64,000 nt of DNA from Scyliorhinus canicula. Taxonomy: Eukaryota. A model generated the notes under the pieces. It saw only the letters and a list, made by a program, of their open reading frames with translations, had not been told where the DNA came from and searched no databases. Shown piece after piece: positions 190 to 59,293 of this stretch. Within the stretch, counting starts at the first letter, position 1; every line of letters begins with the position of its first letter. The stretch covers positions 168,907,050 to 168,971,049 of the forward strand of contig NC_052151.1 of NCBI RefSeq assembly GCF_902713615.1, read 5' to 3'. Position numbers and translations under genes: made by a program.

Positions 190-2059
190 GGGTGTCACTG
201 GCCTCCGTACTGACATAATTAGCCCAGTTCTTAGTGGGTACCCCTTATCCCCCAAGAGCCAACCAAGCCATCCAGGGGCATTGATTGAAGAGGCCGGAGT
301 GTCCAAATGTCCCAGGATGTAGCTGTCATGCACACTCCCTGGGAAACGTGCACACATGTGCATGATCTTTATGTGCTGGTCCCAGATGAGCTACATGTTC
401 AAGGACTGGAACCACTTCCTGTTGATGTAGAATGCTCCTAGAGTGCAAAGCGTCCATCAGCCCCTGGACCTGGGGCATCCTGTCGATGGTGGAGAAATCT
501 GCTGCCCAGGCATCTTGTTGGACTTGGTCCAGGCCAAAGTTTATATAGTTAACTGCCCGGTTATTCAGAGCATCTGTGACTTCATTGATGCACTTGTGGG
601 CTGTAGCTTGTGAGATGCCCTGGAATAATCCTGAGGTGTAGAAGTTCAGAGCTGTGGTGATCTTGAAGGCCACCAGGAGCAGGTATCCTCCTCCTCCACA
701 TGGTGCCAAATCCATCAGATCATGGCACAGATGCCCTACTGTCCCCTTGTTGAGACGGAGCCTTCTGCACCAACATTGTCTGTCATCTGTTCGAAAGATT
801 AGCAATGCCCGTACACCTTGGACCGTCGCAGACCTCCCCCTCTGGGTAACCCCCTGTCTTGGTCAGCCAGGTTCTCAGGGTGTGGGATGGGGCCCTGTCA
901 ACGTTGCTGCCCTCCAGCATCTGGCCACCTGGCCAGCCAAAAGCAACACTCGGGCAGCTTCCGCTGGGTCCAAGATGTCTTCCATTGCGTTGAATATCTG
1001 TAAGGAATTGGGAGAGGATGAGTGTCTAACCACCAGCGGTCTCTCCATCCCAGTCCCCCCATTGCTTCTTCTCCTCCTCCCCCACTCCCCAACACGCCCT
1101 GCCCACACACCCCCAGTGGCAGTGGAGGCCCCTGATGACCGGACCCCAGAGCCTGTATCCCAGACACCTGTACGTAATGTTAATTGGACTGAGTGCTGGT
1201 CCCCTGCCCGATCCGCACACCCACTCTCTGGCCATGGAAATATCCTCGGTGCTGGGGCCCAGCCCCTGGATGTTCGGGTGTTGGCCACTGCAGTCTGTGG
1301 TGTTTTCTCCTGCAGTGTTCAGGCACAGTGTACAGACATCACAGTCTGATTGGGATGCTAGGCAATAACTCCAACATGCTACATGGCATTCCTATCCACA
1401 GAGATCCACTTTGTCTGTGTGAACTGCTCCCATAACTACGATTGTCAATTTCCAATTCGCAATAGCCTTCAGCCGCAGGCATCTGCAGTCAGTGGGAGTT
1501 TCAGGTGGTCAGTGGGACAGGTCGGCAGCGGCTGGGTTGTCCCCAGAATGAGACCACATGATCCAGGGGTTGGCATGGTGGGCCCATGGGCACTAAGACA
1601 CCCAACCCCCCCCCCCCCCCCCCCCCAGCCCAGGATATGAGCAGCAAACCCCAGGTCCGCCAATAGCGATCCAGCCTGACGGAAGCTGTCTCCCCGAGGG
1701 CTCCCCCACCCTCCCTCCAAGCACCGAGGCATCAACTCCAGTGCCGTCGGGCTCTTTGCCTGGAAGCGAAGATGGCTATTCACCTCCTCGGGTTCCAGCA
1801 GCAGCCATTACATGAACTTCACATTTTTAAAAAAGGGTACTAATCAGCACCCACGTGACCACTTGCTGGTGAGGCTGTGTGATTGGGGTCGCTCCCGTTA
1901 ATCGTAAGATTGGTTTCTTGCGATTTCACCAATGGGTGCGGGCCGATTAGATCCCAAATTGATGAGCACCCAGCGCAGTTCTCGATTTTGGCCTCTCCCG
2001 TGATTTTGCAGCCTCGTCGTTCTCTCGCTTCAGTGAAGTGCGACTATTAAATCGCACCC
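190..2059 (-). mobile_element. Degenerate Harbinger (PIF/Harbinger) DNA transposon with transposase remnant
   Basis: Minus-strand translation gives HARBI1-like segments (KITTALNFYTSG..GISQATAHKCINEVTDAL, MPQVQGLMD, GDKGYPL). A TIR-like end TTAAATCGCACCC lies at ~2047-2059. Left boundary is uncertain. Confidence 0.8.
195..805 (-). pseudogene. Harbinger DDE transposase (HARBI1-like), frameshifted
   Basis: ORF 326..805 plus a GDKGYPL motif near 225-255 in another frame. Confidence 0.8.
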
Positions 2060-2064
2060 ACATT

Positions 2065-2620
2065 TTTATTCAAGGGATTTTCATTTTTATACAAAACACA
2101 AATACACAACCATCTTTATAACTGCGTCACCCCACTCCCCATATATCCTACATGCTTCCTTTTATAGCTAAACAATAAAACAGTAATGACTATAAAACAG
2201 AACAATAAACAAAACCCAGCCCTCCCACCCACCCCCCACCCACTGACATTCTTAATGTAGGAGATGAACAACCTCCATCTCGAGAGGAATCCCTCCTTCG
2301 ATTCTCAATTGGCGAATTTTATCTTCTCCACATTAAGGAATTCCGTCAAGTCATGCTCCCACACCACTGTTTGGAGGGCTCTGGAGACCATCACACTGGA
2401 AAGATGCACTTAATCGCACAAAGGAGGATATTGCATTTACCCTCACTCCAAATCCCCCCTCAAATACCTCACCCAGCTCCTCCTCACACTTCCTCTTACC
2501 TTCCTCCCCAATGAGGATGTCTCTCCCTCCATCAAACACAAACAACATCATGATTTTACAGGGCACATAGGCTATCCCCTGCCCTTGCATACCCTGTATT
2601 TCACCTTTGTAATAATTCCT
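2065..2620 (-). mobile_element. L1/Tx1-like LINE 3' fragment
   Basis: Composition and degenerate coding pattern resemble a LINE ORF2 C-terminus/3' UTR; no clean motif. Confidence 0.35.
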
Positions 2621-2624
2621 CATG

Positions 2625-3830
2625 GGATAATGGGCATGGCTGACGAGGTCAACATTTGTTGCCCATGCCTAATTGCCCTTCAGAAGGCGGTGGTGTGCCA
2701 CCTTCTTAAACTGCTAGAGTTATGCGGTGAAGGTGCTGCCATTGCGCTTTTTGTTAATGGCAAGGACAACATTTGTTAGCCACCTTAATTGCGCTTGAGA
2801 AGGTGGCTCCTTGAACCTCTGCAATTTATGTGGTGCAGGTACACCGACATTCCTGCTAAGAAGGGATTTCCAGGATTTTGATCCTGTGACAGTGAAGCAT
2901 GCTGTCAGGATGGTGTGTGGCTTTGAGGGGAACTTGCAGGTAGTGGTGGCGTCATGCATCTTCTGCCCTTGTCCTACTAGGTGGTAGTTGTCACAGTTTG
3001 GAAGTTGTTGTTGAAGGAGTCTTGGTGAGTTGCTGCAATGCATCTTGAAGATGGTACACACTGCTGCCTGTGTGCGTTGGTGGTGGAGGGAGTGAATATT
3101 AAAGTGATGGTGTGCCCATCAAGCAGCTGCTTTGTCCTGATGGGGTGTTGATCTTCTCGAGTTTTGTTGGAACTGCAGTCATCTGGGCAAGTGGAAAGTA
3201 TTCCATCACATTCCTGACTGAGCCTTGTATTTTGGGGGAGTCAGGAGATGAATTACTTGCAATAGAATTTAAAGTCTCTCAGCTGCTCTTGCAGCTAAAG
3301 ATTTTGCATGACTCATCCAGTTCAGTTTCTGCTCAATGTCAACCACAGGATGTTGATATTGAGGGATTCAGCAATGGTAATGTCAAGTCAAGATGGAGAA
3401 ATCCATTGCCTAGCACTTGTGTGCTGCGATTGTGACTTACCACTTATCAGCCCAAGCCTGGATATTGTCCATGTCTTTCTGCATTTGGACATGGACTGCT
3501 TTATTATCTGAGAAGTTGCAAATGGTGCTGACAAATGGTATTAACCAGCGAGTTCCAAGATTGTGACCCAGTGAACATGAAGGAATGGCGATCTTTGTCC
3601 AAATTGTGATGGTTTGTAACTTGGAGGTAAACTTAGAAGTGATGATTTTTCCTTGTACCTGCTGCCCTTGTCCTTCTAGGTGGTAGAGGACATGGATTTG
3701 AAAGGTGCTGTTGGCGAGTTGCTGCAATGAATCTTGAAGAGAGAACACATTGTTGTGGTTGTGAAAGTGAATGTTTAAGGGGCTGAAGGGGGTGCCGATC
3801 AAGCAGACAGCTTTTTCCACAGGCAAGTGA
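2625..3830 (-). mobile_element. CR1-clade LINE fragments (RT C-terminus and 3' UTR, at least two pieces)
   Basis: ORF 3437..3826 ends in MQKDMDNIQAWADKW, a typical CR1 RT segment. 2880-3130 and 3570-3810 are similar to each other. Confidence 0.7.
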
Positions 3831-4262
3831 GATGGTGCTCACATTTAGTTTCCCAGAAGCCTTGGGTGCTCCGCCCTTGTCAGACGAAATTAGGTGCCTC
3901 AGCTGCCATGACTGTTCTTCCAATCAATGCCTTAAATTTAATTGAGAGCCTGATTCAACCTACTGTGTCCATACCCCACCAGCTGTTCATACTCTTTCAG
4001 TGTCAGGAATGTACTTAGGTGCATTTCTGGTTTCACGACTTTATTCTGCTGTGGTGATGAATTCTTGTCTAAAATCTACATTCACTTGAAGTAAATCACT
4101 TCATGAGCTGAGGGTTTTACTGTGTCCTACCACTGTTTCCAAAACAGATTGTATTTGTCAGTGGATTCCACTGGATTAGTGAGCTCATAGGCTCACTTTT
4201 CTCTTCTGTTTTGTCTCTGACCCTTCCAACAGATCTGAAACAGTGAACCATTTCTTCCATGT

Positions 4263-4594
4263 GGGGCAGCACGGTAGCACAGTTGTTAGCAGAGTTGCTT
4301 CACAGCTCCAGGATCCCAGGTTCGATTCCTGCTTGGGTCACTGTCTGTGCGGAGTCTGCACGTTCTCCCTGTGTCTGCGTGAGTTACTTCCAGGTGCTCC
4401 AGTTTCCTCTCACAAGTCCAAAAATGTGCAGGTTAGGTGGATTGGGCATGCTAAATTGCCCTCAGTGTCCAAAAAGTTTGGGTGGGATTACGAGGATAGA
4501 TTGGAAGCGTGGTCTTAAATGGGGTGCTCTTTCAAAGGGCCGGTGCAGACTCAATGGGCCGAATGGCCTCCTTCTGCACTGTAAATTCTATGAA
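4263..4594 (+). mobile_element. HE1-type tRNA-derived V-SINE, CR1-type tail
   Basis: GGGCAGCACGGTAGC head, B-box GGTTCGATTCC, central V-domain, tail ending TGTAAATTCTATGA. Confidence 0.9.
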
Positions 4595-6777
4595 AAGTGC
4601 CGATTAAGCTTCTTTGCATTTTTTGGTTTGGAATCGTGACAATGATTTGATTGATTAACAAAGGTTTTCGTTATCCAACCTGCCCTGTTTTCTTTCCCTT
4701 TTCATTCACTATTTTTAAGCTTTTTAAAGAACAACTGAGGTGATTGAGTGACAATAGAAGCATCATAATCTTCAGATGTGTCACTAGTGACCAGATGCTA
4801 TGGAGATTGAAGTGCAAATTGAATTGGAACGATGGCCAACTTGCTCATTTTTTTGATTGGAGAGGCACTCCACAGCTGTTTTATTGCTGTCAGTAGAGTC
4901 AGAGGGGATTGGCAGTTCTCCACTCAAGGGCAAAAGCCAATTTATGAGGACTATTCAGAATTTTGCTCATTATGAAGCAGTAGCCTAGGCTAATGAACGA
5001 TCCTCTGTGGTACTGATTTGCTATCGCAAGGTATTATTGCCGGACTTATTAACAAATTACATAAGATTCAACTCGAAACCTTTTCTCCCGAGAGGGGACG
5101 GCAGCAGATTGTCCAACCGTGTGATGATAATTTTTGTACCACTTGAGAAGAGGAATACCAGTGGTGAATACATATGGCCATGAACCTGCCCTCTTTTCTC
5201 ATCAACTGGCGCATCGTCAAGTAATCACCTCCTTTCTCCAGCGTTCAGTAAAAAGAAAAATAGGGTGTTTTTCATTAGTATTAATTTACAGTTGCTGGCA
5301 AACATAAAATCACTTATCTTCAATTGATAGAAAGAAAATGCCCAATGATGTTTCGGTTCTATGTTTCGCTGCTTTTGCAGTTCTTCACTTCTATTCCCGA
5401 ACCAACACTAATTTATTACACCAGCTTATTTTATTATTCGTGATCACAGCTACTTGAAATTGTGAAGTACCTTTGTCTTGGTTTTTGTTCATTTCGCAGT
5501 AATAAATATGCTTGCTGGACCTTGACATTTAAAAATGTATTTCCAGAATATGCCATTCGAAAATGTATGGACTATTTATCACGTTTGTTCATTCAAAAAA
5601 ACCCTCAAATGTTTCTGTTTTTCTGTTTGTATCCATCATTTTCCCCTTCAAATATGGGCAAAATGACTTGAAGTTTAAAGAAAGATGCAATGCTTGTTTT
5701 TGCGCATTGATGCAATTTATTGAGAGGACAATGTGCAGTGCCACAGAAAGATTGCATTCAGGTTCACATCTGGGATTCTCCACATCAGTACGTTCACAAT
5801 CTCAACTGTGTTACTGTGAAATGAGTTTAGGTGCTTCCTACAGTGAGAGAGAATTCCAAGAGAATTGCTTTGCATTTAGGTTTGTTGATAATGTGGTAGC
5901 TTCTTCTACTGGGCTAGGCACAGACAAATCTCAAAAGACTAGTTGCTGTTGAAAAAAAGCACTTAATTAAACAACATCAACACTCTCTGAAGTATACAAG
6001 TCCGACTTTTAAGTTATGGAGCACAATCTAATGGCTGCGATGCACTCAGCACAGTTCCGTGCGAGTCGGATAGATATCGGCAGAGGACAAAATCAGGATC
6101 CGCACAAGGCGGTTTACGACCTAAGCGGCCCGCTCCCGTTGGCAGGTTCCGGATCCTTCCTTGATGTGGCGAGGTGACAGTTCACACCAATTGAGGGCAA
6201 TCTCCATCTCATTATAAGATGGATACCCTATTGAACGGCTTCTCGTGATCTAACCAGTTCCCCAACAGGAGGTCATGAGGGCACCCTGTAGCACTAAAAA
6301 CGGGAAGCTCGTGCAATGGCTGCTGTGGGGATCGGAGGAGGTAAGTAGCCATCTTCGAAATCGGGCATGCAGCTCCATGGTATTTGAATTTGGTTTGTCC
6401 TCTGAAAATGAGGTGATATATGGATACGAATCTGGAACGGTAATGTTTCCTTGTTGTTTAATGGTTAGTGTGATATGTGGAATGTTTCACAGTTGATTTT
6501 CAAATCTTTGTTACTGTTGACGGTTTAATAAACAAAATATTCTCAAGTGGAATCTCGTGAGTACACGTTCCAAGTCGCCGGCGAATGATATTGCCCTTCA
6601 TCCCAATCAAGCTGTGAGGCCTCAACACTCTGCCTGAGCCCTGGAGGTGTCAACACCATAGAGGTAACAGCCAACAATTCAACACCAATAGCTAGGCTTC
6701 AGCACTGGGAATATCCCCCTAACCAGGGAGTGCGTGTGTGTTTGGATCCGGGAGGATACCTGAGCCTGGTCCTTCAT

Positions 6778-7131
6778 GGGGCAGCAGGGTAGCATGGTGG
6801 TTAGCATAAATGCTTCACAGCTCCAGGGTCCCAGGTTCGATTCCCGGCTTGGTCACTGTCTGTGTGGAGTCTGCACGTCCTCCCCCTGTGTGCGTGGGTT
6901 TCCTCCGGGTGCTCCGGTTTCCTCCCACAGTCCAAAGATGTGCGGGTTAGGTGGATTGGCCATGCTAAATTGCCCGTAGTGTCCTAATAAAAGTAAGGTT
7001 AAGGGGGGGGTTGTTGGGTTACGGGTATAGGGTGGATATGTGGGTTTGAGTAGGGTGATCATTGCTCGGCACAACATTGAGGGCCGAAGGGCCTGTTCTG
7101 TGCTGTACTGTTCTATGTTCTATGTTCTATG
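6778..7131 (+). mobile_element. Young HE1-type V-SINE with (TTCTATG)n tail
   Basis: Full head, V-domain and tail; nearly identical to the copy at 36029-36380. Confidence 0.92.
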
Positions 7132-8857
7132 TGTTCCCGGCAGGGGTCTGGGGTCTGGTGTCCACGGGAACCTGCTGTGACAGAGGCTTCACATGTCCCA
7201 GGTGTACCATGTTTAATTGTGAACATTCAAAACCCTAACTGTCCCTAGCTACTGATTAGTGCCCCACCCTCCACCCAGTGCCCAATCTACTTCAGCTTCC
7301 ATGCTCTGCCGCTAAGTCTGTTGTATCCCTAGGGAGCACATCGGAAGTGGAAGCAGCCTGCTGCTTTTTGTGACCTGTGGCCTTTGATGTCCCTGGCGGG
7401 CATCCTCTGGATGGCCTGGAGCTAAAGGGACCCGGCTGCCTTACCGGTGACATCTGCTTTGCCCGCTGCCTTGAGATGTGCCACGGTACAGCGGGAGGGG
7501 GAGGGGAAGGACTAGGGAAAGCTGAAGACCGCCGTTGTCACTCTGGTGAAAGGCTCGGCGTCAGCCTCCGGCTCTGCCTCCTTCCGGAGGGTGCCCATAG
7601 TGCCCTGCTGGCCTTGATAGGAAGGAGGGGCAGCTGGAGTGAGCATCAAGGGCCCCTGCATCATTTAGCTCTGCTGCTCCTGGCACCTCCCCATTCTCTG
7701 CACCATGGTGTTGGCGCCCTCAGAGATGCTCCTCAGTGACTGGGCCAGGCTCTGGAGAGCCCTGGCACTGCTCACCTGCATGTGAGACATGGTCCACAAG
7801 CATCGACAATGTCCACCTGTGCCAGGCACATGTCCTGCAGTGACTGTGACATGCTGTCGAGATGATCAACGATGACCATCACAGACTGAACCATGCATTT
7901 GACACCACCACTCATGGCATGGACGTCGTGCTCCAGGCTTTCCATTGTGGTCGCCACCCTAGCAGTGTTGACCTCGGTGCCATGCAGTGTCTACACCATC
8001 TCCTGAACCCGCAGACTTTGGGATTTCTCCAATAGGCTGCGCACTCGTTGGTGTGTCGCTGACATCCTCTCCTGAATCTCACGGCCAACCCTAGCGTCCG
8101 CATCAACTCCGGGATAACCTTGTCCAGAAGCTCGACATCTGGCTGGGGCCCTACTGAGTCCTGTGATACAGCACAGCTCTGACTACTGACTCCCTTCAAT
8201 GTTTTTGCCTCCACCTGATGAGCAGCAGCAACTGTATGGTGCTAACCAGATTGCGCCCCAGACCCCTGTCCACCTTGTCACCCACGGAGGTGTGTGTCTC
8301 TGCGCTGGTGGAAGGTGGAGGCGATAGCTGTGATGCCTCGATGTTCTCCTCCAAGGTGGTCTCTTGGAAGGCATGCGGCAGCCTGGCACCGGGGCCCTGG
8401 ATGGGCCGTCACCACCCAATGGAGATACTCTGAGAGAATGGGCATGCGGTCTGTGAGAGGGAATGATCGTTTTTTCTGACATGAACCACTCGCTTGATAC
8501 AGGACATCTGGATGAAGCGGCAGTGGATCTTCACCCCCTGCAGTGCAGGCCAACCTCTATCCTCGCCATCTGTCTGGGCTCTTTCCTGCATTTTAGGTGC
8601 CAACGTCTTGCAAGGACAAAGAAAAGGTATTGTGAGCCGGATACTTGATGCATTGGGTGTGAGGGGCTCTATGGCGGGTGACATGTGGGCATGGATAGGT
8701 TGTGCTAGTGGGTGCCACGGTGTGCTGGGGCACAGGCACAGTATCATGCTAGGGCAGGAGGTGGGTGTCCAGTACCAACCGCTGACACACTGGGAGGGGG
8801 TTGGGAGGTCCTGGCAGTGTGAGGTGAGATTGATGCCGGGGGCCGATGTCAACTCAC

Positions 8858-9045
8858 CCGTGCAGTCTGGTGGAGGTCTTTGTTCTTCTTCCTGTACTGG
8901 ACTGCTGACCTCCTGGACTGATGGCCACTGCCTCCCAGGCAGCACTGGCAGTCCTGAGGCTGATCCTCCGATCACGTTGGGTGAACAGGGTGTCCCGTCT
9001 CGACTCCATAGTGTCCAGCAGCCTGATTAGGCAGCATCTCTGAAA
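8858..9045 (-). pseudogene. Harbinger Myb/SANT-like DNA-binding protein, first exon (frameshifted)
   Basis: ORF 8854..9150 plus the adjacent frame giving the Q-x-RKK-x-x-DL motif; intron donor immediately after. Confidence 0.7.
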
Positions 9046-10129
9046 TGTGAAGCAGGTCTTCGTGGTGCTGTTCTGAGTGTATTTGGAGGGAGTGGTTTCT
9101 GTGCTGCTCTCCCTGGTTACCAGGGAGATGCTGAGCACGGTACAGGCCAATCAGCTGGCAGGAAGCGACTGTGTGGCGCTAACCAGATTGCGTCTCAGAG
9201 GCCTGTCCACTACTGCCGCCCACGGAGATGTGTGCCTCTGTGCTGGTGGAAGGTGGGGGTGATAGCTGTGACTCCCCGATAGTGGCATCCCCGGAGCTCT
9301 CCTCTAAGGTGGTCTTTTGGAAGGCGGGTGGCACCCTTGCACCATGCCATCCCAGATGGGCCATCATCACTGGGGGAACATTTCCAGCACTAATTGCCAT
9401 TAGGTACTGGCTGCGGAACCCCTGGTTGGCTGTCGGGAAGCACACAGGAAATCACGTTCACTACGGAGTGTAGAGCTTCACCCATTCGATCACGCCCGTG
9501 GTGTTTTATTTCAGTTTGGAATGGTTTGAAAACAGGCTCAATTGTTCCCATGCAGAGTAAATGCCTACAGACAATGCTGGCAAATATTTACCGGCCTTAA
9601 AGTTGCTGATGTTTTCAAAGACAAAGCTGCCAACCACATAGCTTCCTCAACCCCTCAATCGTGTTTGCATCCTTTAACTCTAAAATTAATGAAGGATCTG
9701 GCCCAGTTCATCACCAGGTAATTGGTTCATTTGTCAAATGTAAGCACACATTTTTTGCCCATAGGAAGAGCTCAGGACAATTACAGTGGACAGTTAACTT
9801 TTGGTTGTACACCATCAGTAAATGTGGGGCTTGTATCAGCTCTAATGACTGGTAATCTTTCTCTTCCAATGGCTGAAACATGAATGACAAAAATATATCG
9901 TCAATGTTATCAATAGGATTGATAAATGCTTGTATTCTGCAAAGATGTCTTCAGAAGATCCTTATATTTATTAGTAAGATCATCCCTGAGGTTGAATCAA
10001 ATGTTAACGTGTTTTGAGTTATCCTAGCTTTCTACATTATTTTAAGTCAAGCTGACTGAACTGCTGTCAGAATCTAGAAGTGATAGATCAGAGAAGATAA
10101 TGCAGTTGACAACTTTTGTTTGACACATA

Positions 10130-11112
10130 TACGCATTGGATCATGAGAGAAAGGGAGGCTTATGGCAGATATCGAGGGTTCAAAACAGCAGAAGCCTGAG
10201 AGGCATATAGAATACGTAAGAGGGAACTTAAAAAGGAAATTACAAGAGCGAAAAGAGGACATGAAAGGATACTAACATAAAGGAAAATCCGAAGTTGATT
10301 TACAAGTAAAGATAATAAGATAACGAGGGAAAGAGTAGGGGCCATTAAGGACAGTTAATACTTTTTATTATTTAATAAAATTACAGTTGTAATTTGTGTG
10401 TGGAGCCAGAGGATGTAGGTAGGGTATAAATCAATACTTTGTTCACTAGTGAGAGGAATGATGTGGGTATCAAAATCAGAGAGAAGGACAGTGATAAAAT
10501 GAAATAAAGTAACAGAGAGAAGGTTCTGAGTGGTCTGTCAGGCTTAAAAAGTAGACAAATCTCCAGGGCCAGATGAAATGTATTCCAGGCTATTGAGTAA
10601 GGCAAGGGAGGAAATAGCAGGGGCACGGGTAATATTTTTCAGTTCCTCTCTGGTCACAGGAGAGGTGCCAGAGGACTGGAGGACAGTCAATGCGGTGCCT
10701 TTATTCAAGAAGGAAGGAAGGCATAAACCAGGAAACTACAGGCCAGTCAGTCTTACTTCAGTGGTGAGGAAATTATTGTGAGCAACTCTGAGGGACAGAA
10801 TTAATCTACATTTAGAGGAATCAATAACCAGAGATTTAAAGTAAGGGGCAGGAGGTTTAGAGGAGATGCGAGGACAAATATTTTTATCCAGAGGATGGTG
10901 GGAGTTTGGAACTCGCTGCTCGAATGGATGGTGAAGGTAGAGACCCTCATAATAATTTAGAAGTATTTAGATGTGCACTTGTAATGCCAAGGTGCACAAT
11001 ACTATGGGCCAAGAGCTAGGAAATGGGATTAGAATAGTTAGGTCGTTGGTTTTGACTGCCACAGGCTCAATGGGCCGAAGGGCCTTTTCTGTGCTGTATG
11101 ACTCCATGACTG
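10130..11112 (+). mobile_element. CR1 LINE, internally deleted ORF2 fragment with 3' end
   Basis: ORF 10578..10781 GEVPEDWRTVNAVPLFKKEGRHKPGNYRPVSLTSVV; 3' end GGGCCGAAGGGCC..CTGTGCTGTATGACTCCATGACT. Confidence 0.9.
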
Positions 11113-12345
11113 TTTTATTTTTATAATTAAATAAAGCCACCAATCCCTGATTAGCAATTGAGTAAACAGTTTGTGGGTTAATTTATTGAGACTAGGACAT
11201 GACAACAGATATAAATGGCTATAAAGCTTGCAGACCCCAGCAGCAGAGCTGTATTGTGTGCTCTGCTTTAAGCAAAAGTGAAACAAAAACTGATCACATG
11301 ACACCTTCCCTTTCTCCTATCCCTGAAAGGCATATTACAGCTGACACCAATATGCTTAGTGATAGTCAATGGGGTGGACAAATGGATCTCCAGTTGTATC
11401 AGACTGTATTGCTTTAATGGAAAATAAGGTAATAAAATTGAATCATTCCAAAATCAGGTGACATGTTTACCATTAGCATGGTCCATTGAACTTCATTGCA
11501 ATTGGATTATTGATTTTATACTTCACAAAGATTTCCATGTACAAATCTACATAATATTGTCCATGTGACAACTGTATTGAGTACCAAGCATGAAACATGA
11601 AATGCTCAATGTTACCAGTTTAAGGTATGGGCATTTGAATGCAACTCTCCAACACTGGAATATGGGCAAAATACAGAGTTAAATTTATTATTAGTGAGGC
11701 AGAGCCACTTTCTTTGGCTGAACTCAGTTTCCAATTGAAGCCAGCTGGTTGATGATCAAGCTTTTGTTCAGAAGGGCAATAACGTGCTTAGGAATTGCCC
11801 AGCTAGCCACCTGTTCTATGTAATGGATCCTACCCTTTGTGGAAATCTGCCAACTGAGTCGTTGCTATTAATGACAGAATCATCAGTTCTGTGGGGATAA
11901 CAACCTTCCTTTTCTGGCCTGTAAATGAAACACTTGGACTGACAATAGGTTGTGAAAGCTATATGCTTTCCAACTTGGATTACTTTATAATTGTCGTGGG
12001 CTGTGATACAGATGCAACATTACAGTAATAAAGCTGCTTAATTTCCAAAGTGCTTTTATCCTTGACCCAAAACTGTTAAACAAAAGTCCCAAAATCTAAA
12101 TTCTTGGGGGACAAAGTGGTCTCTTGAGTTATGCCCCAATATTTCACCTTGGGCTTCGTTGAGGGGATAGAAGTTCCCTTTTGCCATTGACAATAATAGT
12201 TCAATGTGTAATGAATTTGAGATATTTCAATCTGGATCCCAGTGAGCCAAGGCCTACAGCACGTAAATGCACCTAATTCAGCAGATAAAGTAGAGTAGAA
12301 TCTAGTTGCAAGATTACCTGACCCGGAAGTGGGTGCTGAAACGGG

Positions 12346-12516
12346 GAGCTGGATTCTCCATCCCACCGCGCCAGATTTCTGGTTCAGCACGCAGACGGGA
12401 TGCTCCGTTTCGCCGGCTGGTCAATGGGGTTTCCCATTATGTGGCAGCCCCATGCCGTCGGAAAACGCCCGGGTTGTAGGCAAAATGGAGAATCTCGCTA
12501 GTGGAGAATCCAGCCC
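12346..12516. mobile_element. Short Harbinger-type MITE (~170 bp)
   Basis: TIRs GAGCTGGATTCTCC / GGAGAATCCAGCCC; internal GGCTGGTCAATGGGGTTTCCCATT shared with the 19207-19376 copy. Confidence 0.85.
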
Positions 12517-15638: not shown

Positions 15639-15697
15639 TAGAGGCAGGCCAGTTTGTATCACTCCATCACAGTTTTCAGAATAAATAAGTTAGCTAA

Positions 15698-16004
15698 TGT
15701 GGTGATCTCCATATGTATAGCAATGTATATAGTTGGATGTGTGACCTCCAACCAGCAGGTGGGGATGGTGATCCACCATGTAACTCCACAGCTCCACAGA
15801 TTAGGATTTGGTAGTAAATCATATTGGAGGACAGTTGCATGAGATGTAGCTCCAGGAGAATTCACTTATTTATTACCGTCTGTATTAGAGTTCATTAGTT
15901 ATCTTTCCACATGTTCATTTTGTTAATAAACTACCTTACTAATCAAAGAACTATATGTTCTTTACCACGGCCCTATTATATTCTGTGCATAATAGAATAT
16001 AACA
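15698..16004 (+). repeat. 5' LTR
   Basis: TGTGGTGAT...AATATAACA; aligns with 19572-19867 at roughly 85% by eye; contains AATAAA. Confidence 0.95.
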
Positions 16005-16017
16005 TGGCACCAAGAGT
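16005..16017 (+). promoter_or_regulatory. Primer binding site, probably tRNA-Leu(TAA)
   Basis: TGGCACCAAGAGT directly after the LTR; 11/13 match to TGGTACCAGGAGT, the complement of the vertebrate tRNA-Leu(TAA) 3' end as recalled. Confidence 0.7.
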
Positions 16018-16148
16018 ATAAAATAATTGAAAATAACTACAGAGAAGACAGGATGAAACAGACTGAAGAAAGAAAAAGAAAATTCTTCCACCTATCTGGT
16101 AAACTACGGGAAACTGGAACTCCATGCACGGAAAGACTAAAGTTAGAT

Positions 16149-16960
16149 TTGGAAGGGCTGACAACAACTCACCAGCTTCAAGTCACCAGTAATGTAGACG
16201 AGAATTGACGTGTTTTAAGCAGCAATTCAAACTCAGTGTTGTAGCCCTTGGCCTGCAGGCACAGCCTGACAAGAGTCCAATTGCATTGCTGCTCATAGTA
16301 GCAGCTCCTCAGCAATTGAAATTTACAATACATTCGCGTTCGATAGCGAAGGATAAAGCAAAACCTTCGATGAAGTAATAGAATACGTTGATCGACATTG
16401 CTCCCCAAAAAGAAATGAAACATTCCAGCGGTATATCTTTCGCAAGTCTACTCAGAAGGTGGGCAAATCGTTCGATAGTGTTCCAACCGAAGACGCAGTC
16501 GTGCAATTTTAATACATTAAAGATGTTGTGATCCGTGATTGGGATATCGAATGACAAGGTACGCGAGAGGCTTTTGAGGGAAGAAGACCTTCAATTAGAA
16601 AACACTCTGGAGATTTGTCATGTGAGCAAGCTAGCTGCACAGCAGATTAGTACGCTGAACCTGAAACATTTTGGCGCCAATGTACATGAAGACGCCAGCT
16701 TAGTGACGCATTCCAATAAGAAATGTTATCCCAGTGTGGGTGGCCATTTTAAACAGCCGACCAGATCCACCATTTTGTGCGCGTGATGTGGCAATTGACA
16801 TGAGCCACGGCAATGTCCAGCTTTTGGGAAAGAGTGTTCAAAGTGTGGCATAACAAATCATTTTGCGAAGCAACGTTTTTCACATCCAACAATGGACCAA
16901 ACCAGATCAGTCAACATGGTTGATGAGATGTGCATTGAATACCTGTTTTTCGTTGATCTG
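16149..16960 (+). pseudogene. gag: Gypsy gag with two zinc knuckles (stops and frameshifts)
   Basis: FKQQF..IALLL..AIEIYNTF..PKRNETFQRYIF..IGISNDKVRERLLREEDL; CxxC..H..CPAFGKECSKCG..NHFA at ~16777-16880. Confidence 0.9.
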
Positions 16961-17040
16961 ACTTTGACTGAGGACACGATAGGTTTGAATATGCAGTCTT
17001 ACTTACCAGTTGCAGCAATAGTGATGGTGATGCTGACACC

Positions 17041-17346
17041 ATGGAAGACAGATGGATAATACCATTGATGCTGGATGGCATTTTAATTAAATGCAAGCTT
17101 GACATGGGAGCGAGGTCCAACATTCTCAGTTTCATAGATTTGATCAGGCTGAGAGTCAAACCGACAGCCATCAATCAAACAAGTCTGCTGAGAGACTACA
17201 ATGGGATGGAGATTGCAACATTAGGCGCATGTGAGCTCGCAGCATGGGTACACAACAGAAGTCACACCCTATCATTTTCCATTGTGGACGTGGAATGGGA
17301 GTCCATCATAGGAGCTGAAGCATGCCAGGCAATGAACCTAGTTTAG
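17041..17346 (+). pseudogene. Retropepsin aspartic protease (active site D-T-G reads D-M-G)
   Basis: CKLDMGARSNI...LRDYNG..I.TLG...IIGAEACQAMNLV. Confidence 0.9.
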
Positions 17347-17370
17347 CAGCTGTACATTCCAGACAGCGCA

Positions 17371-18276
17371 GTGACAGAGGATCATTGCAAGTGGCAACGA
17401 GATGAAGTGGAACAGTTATCCGATTAGATAAAAGCAAAAGTCAAGGTGGAGGAAGATGAACCAGATGAAGAGATGGAGGAGCCAAAAGCAATTCCAGAAT
17501 TCTGGTTGATAGTCTTAAAAAATGTGGATTTGCTCAATGACATGATACAGGAGAATGCTGAGCCTTTCTTAAAGCATTTACAAGATTTACAGGTGAAATG
17601 TTCAGATCCTGGACAGCCAATGAGTTTTACTCTGGAGGATACATTTGAGCCAAATGAGTATTTTACAAATGAAGCAGTGACAAAAACATACCAGATGGCG
17701 TCACAGTCTGATGAGTCTGATTTTTTTTTCTTGGATGAAGCAGAAATCATTGGATGCACAGGGTGCCAGAACGACTGGAAGAAAGGAAAAAATATCACAT
17801 TGAAAACAATGAAGCAGGAGCATCAGGGCCAGAGCACTGGTAGAACAGTTACAAAAACTGTACCAAATGACTCTTTCTTCAATTTAATTAGTCCTCCTGA
17901 AGTTCCAGAGGATGGGGAACTGGATGAAGGTTCTGCGGCAAGACTCACTGCTGATTTTGAAATTGGTCATTTCATGCAGGAACACATAATTCCACAAGTA
18001 GTGTTGTACTTCACAAGAGAAGCTACAGCAGACGATAATGATGATGATTACGATGGTGATGAAGAAGATTACGATGAGGAAAGTGAAGAATCAGATGATA
18101 AGCCAGAAGAGGAAGACTATGAAAGTTTATTTAGTTTATTTGGCATTAGTGATGAGGTGATAATGAATAGCATCCAATCTGAGCAGAACAACGATGAGTG
18201 TGAAAGTTTGAAGATGGAGTGTGCAGAGGCTGAAAGTGAGATTGCAACAGCAAACAAATTATCTGAGAGCGAATAA
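17371..18276 (+). pseudogene. NAP1L1: Intronless, 5'-truncated NAP1L1 (nucleosome assembly protein 1-like) retrocopy; open from 17428 to 18276
   Basis: IPEFW..KNVDLL.DM.QE..EP.LKHL, GQPMSF, FEPNEYFTN, TKTY, IGCTGCQ.DWKKGKN.TLKT, NDSFFN, ADFEIGHF, IIP..VLYFT and acidic tail are collinear with vertebrate NAP1L1. In-frame TAG at 17425-17427. Confidence 0.93.
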
Positions 18277-18716
18277 ACTGTGAACAGCCAAATGGTGACT
18301 GAAGAAATAATCCCCATTTTGGAGAAAGTGGCTCCAGAGAAGTACGATGAATTATCCACGGAAAGGTTCCTGCAATGGATTCACAAGTATTCAAGGCCAG
18401 TCCAAAAAAAAACTTGCAGCAAGAACATATGAATACATTTTCATGCAGTTCTACAACAACAGATGAATCATTATATCAGATGAGGATGATCCACTAATTT
18501 AGACTCAAACACAAAGTGAAGTATTGAGGACATTGATCTAGCTAAGATACTGGAATGTGAGTGTTTGCAGATCATTCCTGAAGTTGCAAACTTGCCTGCA
18601 ACTGTGGATGCTCCAAGAGTATTCCGACATTAGATGCCTCACCTGTTGTTGGGCACGCAGTACAGCGTTCGTTCACAAGCACCATGGATCAACCAAAATA
18701 CCCCAATCCAGCAAAG

Positions 18717-18893
18717 GCTCCAGAATCAGCTATTGTGGCAGTAGAGTCAGAAACAACTTTCACAGCAGATGATCCAGAGACAGCTATTATTGCAGAAGAT
18801 CCAGACACAGCTATTCCAGTAGATGATCTAGAAGCAGCTGTTGCAGCAAAAGATCCAGAAGCAGCCATTGCAACAAGGGGTCCAGAAACAACT
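18717..18893 (+). repeat. 27-bp coding tandem repeat, about 6.5 units (D-P-E-T/A-A-I-x-A-x)
   Basis: GATCCAGARRCAGCTATT-like units at 27-bp spacing within ORF 18684..18944. Confidence 0.85.
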
Positions 18894-19206
18894 AAACCCT
18901 TGACCGAGACCAATAGCCAGAATGATGCTCTAGGTGCACAGTGAGATGCGAGTGTGAATCGCAAAAATTTCACTGATGATGCCACTAAAGCTAAGAAGAA
19001 AAGGAGAAGGAAAGTGCTGATTATAAAAAAGAGAAGGAAGGATAAGAGAAGAGTTGAGGACACAGTTGCTCGACTGGGTAGCAGACGCGACAGTGAAGAC
19101 ACAAGCATCGGCAATAAGGCCAATATGCAAGAACACACACTGTGTAGGAAGCATCGCTTCAAAAGGCTGAAAGAGATGGTGATTCAAAGACCAGCCAGAA
19201 AACCAG

Positions 19207-19376
19207 GGCTGGATTCTCCGCCCCGCCACACCACATTTCTGGCCCGACCCGCTGGTGGGATTCTCCGTTACGCCGGCTGGTCAATGGGGTTTCCCATTGT
19301 GGGGCAGCCCCACGCCATCAGGAAACCCCCTGGGCGCCGGCAAAACGGAGAATCCTGCCTGCGGAAAATCATGCCC
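19207..19376. mobile_element. Short Harbinger MITE nested in the LTR element, TSD CAG
   Basis: GGCTGGATTCTCC...GGAAAATCATGCCC flanked by CAG at 19204-19206 and 19377-19379. Confidence 0.9.
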
Positions 19377-19559
19377 CAGGTCTTTCGAAAGATGAAACAA
19401 GGTCATGTGTTTGGTTAAGATTTAGGAGATCAACAAGAAGATGCCATTAACCTGAAAGACTGAACATGTAACGAACTGTGTACAAGGGACACGTTTGAAA
19501 TTGTTACGCATGTCATGTTTTGTAATGCACAGTTAGATTTGTTAAACATTCACATTTCC

Positions 19560-19571
19560 AAAGGAAGGGGA
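19560..19571 (+). promoter_or_regulatory. Polypurine tract
   Basis: AAAGGAAGGGGA immediately before the 3' LTR. Confidence 0.85.
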
Positions 19572-19867
19572 TGTGGTGATATGCATCCGCATAGCAATGT
19601 ATATCATTGGATGTTTGACCTCCAACCAGCAGGTGGGGTGTGGTGATCCTTTATGTGACTCCACAGATCAGGAGTTGGTAGTAAGTTATACTAGAGGGCG
19701 GTTTGCATTAGAAGTAGCCCCAGGAGAATTCACTTATTTGTTACTGTCTGTATTAGAGTTTGTTAGTTATCTTTCCACGTGTTCATTTTGTTAATAACTA
19801 TCTTACTAATCAAAGAACTAGATGTTCTGTGCGCACCTTTACCACAGCCACAACACAGAACATAGCA
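19572..19867 (+). repeat. 3' LTR
   Basis: TGTGGTGATATGCAT...AGAACATAGCA followed by TSD GCTAA. Confidence 0.95.
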
Positions 19868-20259
19868 GCTAACAGATATTTTGGCGCTGTTTTATTTGTG
19901 TACTTGAAGCTTCTCCAAAGTTCTAAATTGGCGTAAAAAAAAGCTTTGAAATATATTTGTTCAATGGTTGCAACCCTACTTTGACTTCTGACTCTTTTGC
20001 TAAACATTCTATAGCCTTAAAATGTTGCAGACCAATGACCCTTATTATTTGTGAAGAAATAAAACATCCTTCAGTTGTTAACAGGTTATCTTTCATTCAA
20101 AAAGCCCTTTTGGCCTTCACAATACATGTTGGTCAGATTCAGTCAGTTTCTGTGCTCCAGTACACAGCCAGCGGCATTCTGTATTTCATTTCAAATATTA
20201 ATGCTCCTCCTGCGTTGAATGAGTTCCTCTAATCTCAATCACAAATTTCACTTCAAAGC

Positions 20260-22519: not shown

Positions 22520-23590
22520 TCGACAAATTTAGACGGTCGGGCGCCTTGATCCGCCATTGCGAGCGCCGCAGGTGTGGTGTTGATGCTGGCGTTGGTTCGG
22601 TCGTCGGTGACTCCAGGAGCGTCATCTTCATCCACGGGTGGGACCAAGGGGAGGGTAGATCATCCTGGAACGGGGGCTGTGGCGGGGTGCGCCGGGGGAG
22701 GGGGGGGGCTGTGCGGGGACCCGGCTGGTGCCAGGTCCGGGAGGGAGACTGTGTCTTGGTGGCCGTCGCGGTACGTGCGGGTTCGCGTGGCGTAGCTGTA
22801 CCCTCTCAACCAACGGGTCCGCCTTGTGGAGCCACACGCGCTTACAGAGGAGAACGGGTCCTGGAGCTGCCAGCCATGTTGGGAGCGAAACCCCGAAGGT
22901 GGACTTCCTAGGGAAGGCAAAGAGACGTTCATGGGGAGTTTCGTTAGTCGCAGTACACAGGGGCGACCAAATGGAGTGAAGGGTATCGGGGAGGACCTCC
23001 TGCCAGCGGGAGGCCGGGAGATTTCTGGACCATAGGGCCAGCTGGACGCCTTCCAGACCTTCCCATTCTCCCGCTCCACCTGCCCGTTTCCCCGGGGGTT
23101 GTAGCTGGTCGTCCTGCTCGAGGCAATGCCCCTGTTGAATAGGTACTGGCACAGCTCATCGCTCATGAATGAGGATTCCCAGTCGCTGTGGATGTAGGCG
23201 GGGAAACCGAACAGAGCGAAGATGGTGTTAAGGGCTTTGATGACGGTGGCAAACGTCATGTCGGGGCATGGGACGGTGAAGTGGAATCGCGAATACTCGT
23301 CGACCACATTGAGAAAATACGTGTTGTGGTTGGTGGAGGGAAGGGACCCTTTGAAGTCCACGCTGAGGCGTTCAAAGGGGTGGGAGGCCTTCACCAGGCA
23401 TGCATGGTCCGGCCGGTAGAAGTGCGGCTTACACTCTGTGCAGACCTGGCAATCTCTGTTGATAGCCCTGAATTCCTTGATGGAATAGGGCAGATTGTGG
23501 TCCTTTATGAAGTGGTAAAAGCAGGTGACCCCTGGGTGACAGAGATCGTCGTGGAGGGTGTGGAGTCGGTCTACTTGTGCGCTGGCACAT
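22520..23590 (-). pseudogene. Gypsy integrase (HHCC, DDE core, C-terminal LRRSQWRIKAPDRLNL)
   Basis: ORF 22660..23394 PFERLSVDFKG..VVDEYSRF..IHSD..YNPRGNGQVEREN; frameshifted. Confidence 0.92.
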
Positions 23591-58640: not shown

Positions 58641-59092
58641 CTTATCTAAAAGGAAACCTGCACCAGGTAAACTGACTGGACAAAAAGACAGGTAAAAAGG
58701 CCAGTGACAGATATTTAAATACAAAGGGCGTGCTTTTCCCGCCACGTTGCACCCGGCACTGATCTGGGTGTGCCAGGAGCATCGCAAGAGAGGCCTAAAT
58801 CAGGGTTCGCACCTGGTTCAAAGCCATTCACAAGTTACCTGGCCCGTGGCACCTGACGCGACAGGAACGATGTCCTCGTTGGGCATGATCTTTAAATGAA
58901 TCGTGAGCTTTTTTAAATATGTGTGGCCTATTTGAAGTCACATTCTCCCGTGCCTGGGAGTCATTGGCCACACCGACGTGGCCTCAACCGGGCACTGATT
59001 AGTGAATACATTAACCCTTAACTGCAATCTTTCATCTCACTCAAACAGCAGAACAAACCCATCTCAACTCTCAATCACTGTTAAAATACAGT

Positions 59093-59293
59093 AAGAAGTC
59101 TTACAACACCAGGTTAGAATCCAACAGGTTTGTTTCAAATCAGTAGCTTTCGGAACACTGCTCCTTCCTCAGGATAAGGAAGGAGCTGCGCTCCGAAAGC
59201 TAATAATTTGAAAAAAACCTGATGGACTTTAACCTGGTGTTGTAAGACTTCTTACCATGCTCACCCCAGTCCAACGCCGCCATCTCCACATCA
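59093..59293. mobile_element. Penelope-like palindromic insertion with 14-bp TSD
   Basis: Inverted arms across 59091-59255; TGTTAAAATACAGT at 59079-59092 and 59294-59307. Confidence 0.8.

What the first reader, a model, noticed from the sequence alone, without database searches (positions are those of the whole stretch)
18684..19471. Hidden C-terminal ORF: acidic 9-aa repeats, basic NLS-like patch and integrase-type tail, restored by removing the MITE
Seen: ORFs 18684..18944 and 18954.. share a frame split by one TGA. Deleting the MITE plus one CAG joins ...RKP to GLSKDETRSCVWLRFRRSTRRCH*PERLNM*. That tail matches the integrase C-terminus of the other Gypsy in this window (LRRSQWRIKAPDRLNL, ~22522-22572 minus). 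The segment also has KAKKKRRRK and KKRRKDKRR. Inference: the original ORF probably ran from gag to the native pol stop, keeping a basic tail that may bind chromatin or direct nuclear import and could replace the lost NAP1 basic loop. 18277-18683 needs several frameshifts to connect.
Basis: partly seen in the sequence, partly recalled or inferred. Interest (0 to 1): 0.7.

Follow-up and report, generated by a model that had tools for sequence, protein, structure and literature searches.

The report
Shark retrotransposon carrying two chromatin genes
The hidden reading frame is the decayed end of a catshark jumping gene that replaced its own copying enzymes with pieces of two host chromatin genes, one of them a helper of transposon silencing, and then spread to many copies; whether the fused protein ever did anything is not shown.

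Summary
The frame, the 27-bp repeats, the basic patches and the MITE are real. They are the 3' part of an old, broken copy (LTRs K2P 0.14) of a multi-copy, non-autonomous Gypsy family of Scyliorhinus-type sharks (15698-19867). Shark gene models and contigs of public runs show the same fusion in other copies, some without the MITE, with breaks at other places, so an originally open frame is likely through the ATF7IP part. 18530-19205 has no identified parent; its last motif sits where a Gypsy integrase ends but scores at window-wide chance level. The 'replaces the lost NAP1 basic loop' idea fails: two other copies keep the loop. Copies differ from each other as much as from host NAP1L1 (about 71%), as in neutral decay, and the SETDB1-binding part of ATF7IP was not captured. 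Best reading: Bs1-like LTR-mediated capture of two mRNAs, then amplification in trans. A selected chromatin-acting fusion is not excluded (15%).

The parts
15693..15697 (.). left target-site duplication GCTAA
   Evidence: same 5 bases at 19868-19872
15698..16009 (+). 5' LTR (TG start; end at 16004 or 16009), followed by a PBS-like TGGCACC
   Evidence: 245 of 291 aligned bases identical to the 3' LTR; K2P 0.14 over 259 sites; primer tRNA not tested
16047..16999 (+). broken gag with a decayed CCHC knuckle
   Evidence: tblastn of K02A2.6-like Gypsy polyproteins P0019-P0022 and of Scyliorhinus model P0017
17053..17346 (+). aspartic protease region, same frame as the NAP1L1 piece, ending in a stop
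   Evidence: 24-35% identity to the protease region of P0018-P0022; no Pfam hit
17374..18110 (+). captured NAP1L1 fragment (host residue 129 of P0003 to the acidic tail), no intron-size gaps, N-terminal 128 residues absent
   Evidence: PF00956 E 3.8e-59; 64% over 245 residues to Xenopus NAP1L1; a high-depth contig of run X15 leaves the window at 17374 with letters that read as upstream NAP1L1
18109..18523 (+). captured ATF7IP/MCAF1 fragment (about residues 215-365 of P0024, with the EIIPILEK motif); starts in the NAP1L1 frame; one stop and two frame changes in this copy
   Evidence: phmmer: 4 of 7 hits are chondrichthyan proteins with PF16788; three colinear pieces in three frames
18524..18581 (+). 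unassigned link; frame not determined
   Evidence: no hit covers it
18582..19205 (+). coding remnant of unknown parent, 208 codons with one stop at 18942-18944
   Evidence: no Pfam family; no match to the ATF7IP profile, E 0.14 or worse; covered by other copies at family depth
18719..18894 (+). 6.5 x 27-bp tandem repeat, 9-residue acidic units
   Evidence: depth peak in run X11
18987..19055 (+). basic patch KAKKKRRRK...KKRRKDKRR
   Evidence: NLS-like by recalled pattern only
19206..19376 (.). very high-copy MITE with inverted ends and a CAG duplication (CWG type, as in the NuwaI group of PHIS/Harbinger)
   Evidence: depth 71,553 in X1; CWG from PMC4482050 passages
19379..19471 (+). probable remnant of the parent's pol end: RR(S/P)xR...PxRL motif with an internal stop
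   Evidence: position fits, score at window-wide chance level; no match above chance to the ends of P0019-P0022
19560..19571 (+). polypurine tract
   Evidence: seen directly
19572..19867 (+). 3' LTR, followed by GCTAA

Best explanation
The stretch is the 3' end of one decayed copy of a non-autonomous Gypsy family. Inferred: inside the particle of an active Gypsy, reverse transcriptase switched template from the element's RNA just after the protease onto host NAP1L1 mRNA, then (in the same or a later round) onto ATF7IP mRNA, and back to the element's 3' end, which kept the last pol codons, the polypurine tract and the LTR. The chimera kept all cis signals, was copied in trans by an autonomous partner, and spread to tens to a hundred or more copies in Scyliorhinus-type sharks. 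After insertion each copy decayed on its own; this one took stops, frame changes and a MITE. The repeats and basic patch belong to the family's low-complexity tail (parent's pol end or a third captured piece), and no working protein is made from this copy. Shown: anatomy, both host sources, the same fusion in other copies, the later MITE. Inferred: template switching, mobilisation in trans, an open frame over the whole length.
For: LTR pair, PPT and 5-bp duplication. gag and protease match Gypsy polyproteins, whose RT, RNase H and integrase find no match in the element. NAP1L1 and ATF7IP pieces are truncated, in sense, and colinear with the host proteins. Four other Scyliorhinus gene models hold parts of the same layout: gag+NAP (P0017), NAP+ATF7IP (P0027), acidic tail+ATF7IP (P0023, P0028). 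Contig depth is 137-1202 (X1) and 584-12262 (X11) in all 20 internal bins from 16116 to 19195 against 2.7-18.7 in the two flank bins; contigs with 44-68 differences bridge the protease/NAP1L1 and NAP1L1/ATF7IP junctions. Copies are 71-72% identical to each other and 66-70% to three tetrapod-type host proteins, which are 91-97% identical among themselves. A neutral simulation at 7% change gives about 1 stop in 18582-19205 and 2.3 in 17374-18276, against 1 and 2 seen. The mechanism, with multi-parent cases and secondary copies, is described in PMC5131818.
Against: Switch-point microsimilarity could not be tested (no parent element or host DNA in hand). Both testable junctions are in frame (1 in 9 by chance) and the repeat unit keeps the frame, which hints at selection for translation. 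Only 10 of 141 host-invariant NAP columns are changed in all three copies, against 11-14 private changes per copy; without the shark host protein this cannot separate short time from constraint in the founder lineage. Summed contig depth is not a true copy number (tool's caveat). The parent of 18530-19205 is unidentified.
Confidence: 0.7

Rival explanations
1. The founder made a gag-protease-NAP1L1-ATF7IP-basic-tail polyprotein that was selected because it acts on chromatin: the acidic NAP1 part and basic patch load or chaperone histones on new cDNA or carry it into the nucleus, and the conserved ATF7IP motif soaks up a partner of the SETDB1 silencing complex. This would explain why the family spread so far.
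For: Two captured genes are both chromatin factors and one is needed for retrotransposon silencing (PMC11703210 passages). Protease/NAP1L1 and NAP1L1/ATF7IP are in frame. The captured ATF7IP piece holds a motif kept in all 4 chondrichthyan proteins. P0028 reads in the ATF7IP frame across the place where 9 profile positions are missing. Copy number looks far above the 1-5 reported for Bs1.
Against: The SETDB1-binding region (PF16788, residues 408-638 of P0024) and the FNIII domain lie outside the captured piece. The N-terminal 128 residues of NAP1L1 are absent; recalled: these hold the dimerisation helix. A conserved NAP motif is altered in all three copies while shark host reads keep it. Copies decay without visible constraint. 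Raw RNA reads of one run give depth 0-1.6 over 18426-19195 and 0-0.9 over gag. No paper names the motif.
Confidence: 0.15
2. 18530-19205 is a third captured host mRNA fragment rather than the parent's pol tail, and only 19379-19471 (or nothing) is native pol.
For: The four closest full Gypsy relatives have only about 50-90 residues after their last conserved integrase block, far fewer than the roughly 250 codons here; none matches this stretch. The element has already captured two mRNAs.
Against: No host protein hit covers 18530-18630. No high-depth transcript lies on 18426-19195 at 80% likeness in X15 or X22, whereas the NAP1L1 and ATF7IP parts do show such excess. No library-wide homology search covered 18631-19205, so this is open.
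Confidence: 0.25
3. One reading: the basic tail was kept to replace the NAP1 basic loop and restore nuclear import or chromatin binding.
For: Basic patch present and the loop is damaged in this copy.
Against: P0017 and P0027 keep the loop with its lysines, and a high-depth contig of X15 has the six bases that this copy lacks at 17810. The damage is later than the family's tail.
Confidence: 0.03

Closest known systems
Maize Bs1 and LTR-mediated retrocopies of animals (Tan et al. 2016, PMC5131818; passages read)
   Same: Partial host mRNAs in sense inside a discontinuous LTR element; more than one parent gene; secondary copies sharing the junctions; parts in frame.
   Different: Gypsy family in a cartilaginous fish; cargo is two chromatin genes; apparent copy number tens to a hundred or more against 1-5 for Bs1; old and decayed. 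[quoted passage not shown]
K02A2.6-like Gypsy polyproteins (P0019 Archocentrus, P0020 Leptobrachium)
   Same: gag with CCHC knuckle and protease in the same order, 24-39% identity; an R-x-x-R...P motif near the protein end.
   Different: RT, RNase H and integrase are absent here; their last 30 residues match 19379-19471 no better than chance.
Vertebrate NAP1L1 (PF00956)
   Same: 64-69% identity over the core and acidic tail.
   Different: First 128 residues and the true C-terminus missing; fused to ATF7IP; decaying.
ATF7IP/MCAF1, SETDB1 cofactor
   Same: About 150 residues of the N-terminal region, 50-54% identity to Heterodontus P0024.
   Different: Lacks the SETDB1-binding helices and the FNIII domain.
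NuwaI group of PHIS (PIF/Harbinger-related) transposons, PMC4482050
   Same: CWG duplication, short inverted ends.
   Different: 170-bp non-coding MITE; no transposase linked here.

Membership tests
Ty3/Gypsy LTR retrotransposon | Paired LTRs, PPT, target-site duplication | tested here: met
Ty3/Gypsy LTR retrotransposon | gag and protease related to Gypsy polyproteins | tested here: met
Ty3/Gypsy LTR retrotransposon (autonomous) | RT, RNase H, integrase in that order | tested here: not met
   no match of these parts of P0018-P0022 in 15698-19870; so a non-autonomous derivative
Ty3/Gypsy LTR retrotransposon | PBS complementary to a tRNA 3' end | not tested
   TGG-starting site seen after the 5' LTR; no tRNA set in hand
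LTR-mediated retrocopy (Bs1-like) | Truncated host coding pieces in sense between discontinuous LTR-element parts | tested here: met
LTR-mediated retrocopy (Bs1-like) | Secondary copies share the junctions | tested here: met
   gene models P0023, P0027, P0028; bridging contigs X1 record 5, X11 records 10-14
LTR-mediated retrocopy (Bs1-like) | Intron loss | tested here: inconclusive
   245 residues colinear with host protein; that the host gene has introns there is recalled
LTR-mediated retrocopy (Bs1-like) | Microsimilarity at switch points | not testable with these tools
   no parent element or host gene DNA held
Gypsy integrase C-terminal tail | Terminal R-x-x-R...PxRL-type motif (recalled) shortly before the PPT | tested here: inconclusive
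   pattern occurs at 2 places in six frames, both before a 3' LTR, but the pattern was drawn from those two; score 35 reached by 8 of 25,459 tiles
Gypsy integrase C-terminal tail | Upstream integrase core, SH3-like block or chromodomain | tested here: not met
   no Pfam family in 18582-19415; no tblastn match
Functional NAP1 chaperone | NAP domain | tested here: met
   PF00956 positions 68-266 of 266
Functional NAP1 chaperone | Full N-terminal part and conservation like host orthologues | tested here: not met
Functional ATF7IP | SETDB1-binding region PF16788 and FNIII domain PF16794 | tested here: not met
   both lie beyond the captured residues
PHIS/Harbinger-type MITE (NuwaI group) | Inverted ends and CWG duplication | tested here: met
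   at this site with insertion-free copies; left flank of the second copy is degenerate
PHIS/Harbinger-type MITE (NuwaI group) | Matching autonomous transposase element | not tested
   none sought

The most novel reading that the evidence does not exclude
A vertebrate Gypsy family captured pieces of a histone chaperone (NAP1L1) and of its own silencing cofactor (ATF7IP), fused them in one frame with gag, protease and a basic tail, and was selected for that protein, which helped new copies enter chromatin or dodge SETDB1 silencing and drove a burst of tens to hundreds of copies in catsharks. The conserved EIIPILEK motif would then mark an undescribed binding site of ATF7IP.
Probability: 0.15. 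Interest if true: 0.85.

Novelty: new variant of a known kind. Interest (0 to 1): 0.55.

Why it matters
LTR-mediated capture of several mRNAs is known, but the animal cases in the passages read are young and of low copy number. Here a two-gene chimera seems to have become a successful family in a shark genome, and its cargo is a histone chaperone plus a cofactor of transposon silencing. Many independent copies make a direct test possible of whether captured host genes were selected for the element's benefit. It also explains several odd RefSeq models in Scyliorhinus (named NAP1L1, KEX1-like, chloroplast translocase-like or uncharacterised) as pieces of one element. I found no description in five searches of the held library (listings only); Repbase and subscription journals were not searched, and no supplements were read.

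Tried and rejected
No whole genome is held, so copies could not be read in full. NAP ORF against longer proteins (495-2000 aa): 15 of 2042 candidates, none a gag fusion; P0017 (443 aa) lay below that length window. Protease against longer proteins: 0 of 215 candidates. Pfam on 18582-18941, 18945-19415 and the X-read frame: no family. ATF7IP as source of the basic patch: rejected, tblastn E 0.18-0.32 and profile E 0.14 or worse. The first tail comparison used a wrong frame of the other Gypsy and was redone; a last print step crashed without affecting the counts. No RNA holder listed (no evidence either way); 20 of 24 rows hold part of the stretch, none half of its words, in 7 studies; 4 runs were laid. 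One search showed only 40 of 1369 difference rows, 12 of 108 indel rows and 15 of 482 joints, and the stops at 18942 and 19448 are not among them, so whether they are private to this copy is unknown. Earlier findings: four look-ups, nothing. Considered and rejected: chance ORF, functional retrogene at this locus (breaks throughout), replacement of the NAP1 loop. Paper searches gave background listings only.

Full report
Observation. The two ORFs share one frame, open from 18582, with one TGA at 18942-18944. One stop in 208 codons is reached by 1 of 2000 dinucleotide shuffles over three frames and 16 of 2000 over six; the part after the repeats alone is weaker (56 and 1161 of 2000). The repeat is 6.5 units of 27 bp. 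The basic patches are there. The insertion near 19206-19376 has inverted ends, a CAG duplication and a 78% copy at 12348-12516. CWG duplications mark the NuwaI group of PHIS transposons (PMC4482050, passages).

Context. The stretch lies in an LTR element from 15698 to about 19867: LTRs 245 of 291 identical, K2P 0.14, GCTAA on both sides, a PPT before the 3' LTR. Broken gag and protease match Gypsy polyproteins; their RT, RNase H and integrase find nothing in the element. From 17374 a NAP1L1 fragment follows in the protease frame (PF00956 E 3.8e-59; 64% over 245 residues to Xenopus). No genome is held; 'catshark' is inferred from the named nearest proteins.

A second captured gene. A phmmer search of 18124-18630, read with X at stops, against 1.84 billion representatives gave 7 hits. 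Four are chondrichthyan proteins with the ATF7IP domain PF16788 (three named ATF7IP; Heterodontus E 2.4e-13), three are Scyliorhinus gene models. A profile of the four host proteins hits 18109-18366, 18363-18467 and 18464-18523 in three frames, in order, at profile positions 23-105, 107-141 and 151-170 (same pieces by tblastn). Its central helical part binds SETDB1 and is needed for retrotransposon silencing (PMC11703210, passages). That part (residues 408-638 of P0024) and the FNIII domain are outside the captured residues (about 215-365).

It is a family. The best gag hit (1 of 6, among 169 candidates) is an S. torazame model that joins gag to NAP (P0017). P0027, P0023 and P0028 join the NAP acidic tail to the ATF7IP piece. 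Contigs of two DNA runs of two organisms cover all 20 internal bins from 16116 to 19195 at depth 137-1202 and 584-12262, against 2.7-18.7 in the flanks and 5-14 for single contigs. Medians read off by hand (about 510 and 1700) suggest tens to a hundred or more copies; the tool warns that summed depth is no copy number. Divergent contigs bridge both junctions, and others run colinear through the basic patch (X15 record 22: 253 bases, 35 differences, no gap). Insertion-free joints occur in 5 contigs of 3 runs.

Was the frame once open? Through the ATF7IP piece probably yes: 3 of 3 other models have a residue where this copy stops at 18274-18276, P0023 leaves the ATF7IP frame a few codons later than this copy, and P0028 is in that frame where this copy changes frame near 18467. 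For 18524-18581, the stops at 18942 and 19448 and the insertion site it is not shown: the stops are not among the 40 of 1369 rows displayed, and the joint row (174) and the net length of X15 record 23 (173) differ by one base.

The end motif. It aligns over 15 residues with the other Gypsy's end, score 35, which 8 of 25,459 tiles of the window also reach. Its place fits: 148 nt before the 3' LTR against 129. It does not match the ends of P0019-P0022 above chance, there is no DNA likeness between the two elements' ends, and most copies have Pro for the Ser. A native pol end is likely from position, not proven. What lies between 18524 and 19205 has no identified parent: no Pfam family, no ATF7IP match, no high-depth transcript at 80% in two runs. 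No library-wide search covered 18631-19205.

Function. The loop idea fails because P0017 and P0027 keep the basic loop. Over 155-157 NAP columns the three copies are 71-72% identical to each other and 66-70% to host proteins that are 91-97% identical among themselves; of 141 host-invariant columns 74 are kept in all copies, 10 changed in all three, and 11-14 changed privately per copy. The number of stops fits neutral decay at 7%. In one raw RNA run (about 32% read) depth is 0-1.6 over 18426-19195 and 0-0.9 over gag, while 16-71 over the NAP part comes mostly from reads under 90% alike, i.e. the host gene; one tissue is weak evidence. Against pure passivity: both testable junctions are in frame, the repeat keeps the frame, both cargoes are chromatin factors, and the family spread widely.

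Mechanism and comparison. Template switching in the particle gives partial mRNAs inside a discontinuous LTR element, sometimes from several genes, with secondary copies; maize Bs1 has three parents and 1-5 copies (PMC5131818, passages). This element works like that and meets the structural tests; microsimilarity could not be tested. It is not an autonomous Gypsy, not an intact NAP1 and not an intact ATF7IP. I found no description (listings only); Repbase and supplements were not seen. Recalled, from no call: the NAP1 dimerisation helix lying in the missing N-terminal part, introns in host NAP1L1, the integrase end motif and the NLS-like pattern.

Verdict. The hidden ORF as such is a dead remnant in this copy, but it leads to a multi-copy shark Gypsy derivative carrying NAP1L1 and ATF7IP pieces. 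New variant of a known kind; interest 0.55; chance of a selected chromatin-acting fusion 0.15.

Noticed in passing
window 22439-~26000, minus strand: Second Gypsy element, broken but with protease, RT, RNase H and integrase core (Pfam); different LTR start, so not the partner of the NAP1L1 element.
   Followed up: partly
window 16001-16009 and 19859-19872: Both LTRs seem to run 5 bases past the first CA (TGGCA / TAGCA) before the duplication GCTAA, so the LTR end overlaps the PBS-like site.
   Followed up: no
window 18734-18887: Depth over the 27-bp repeat is about eightfold above its neighbours in run X11 but about threefold in X1: longer arrays or a separate minisatellite in that organism.
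   Followed up: no
P0017, P0023, P0027, P0028: RefSeq models in Scyliorhinus named uncharacterised, KEX1-like, NAP1L1 and chloroplast translocase-like are pieces of this element family.
   Followed up: partly
P0024, P0029: Some chondrichthyan ATF7IP isoform models end in DUF3504/tyrosine-recombinase-like (Crypton-type, recalled) domains instead of FNIII.
   Followed up: no
window 326-862, minus strand: ORF that by eye resembles a decayed Harbinger-type transposase; no Pfam hit at E 0.01.
   Followed up: partly
window 4266, 6781, 36034, 43216, 50629, 53465, 54834, 60457: Dispersed 160-210 bp repeat family, SINE-like, 65-90% alike.
   Followed up: no
window 59091-59255: 79-bp arms 89% complementary, 7 bp apart: a hairpin-type MITE.
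   Followed up: no
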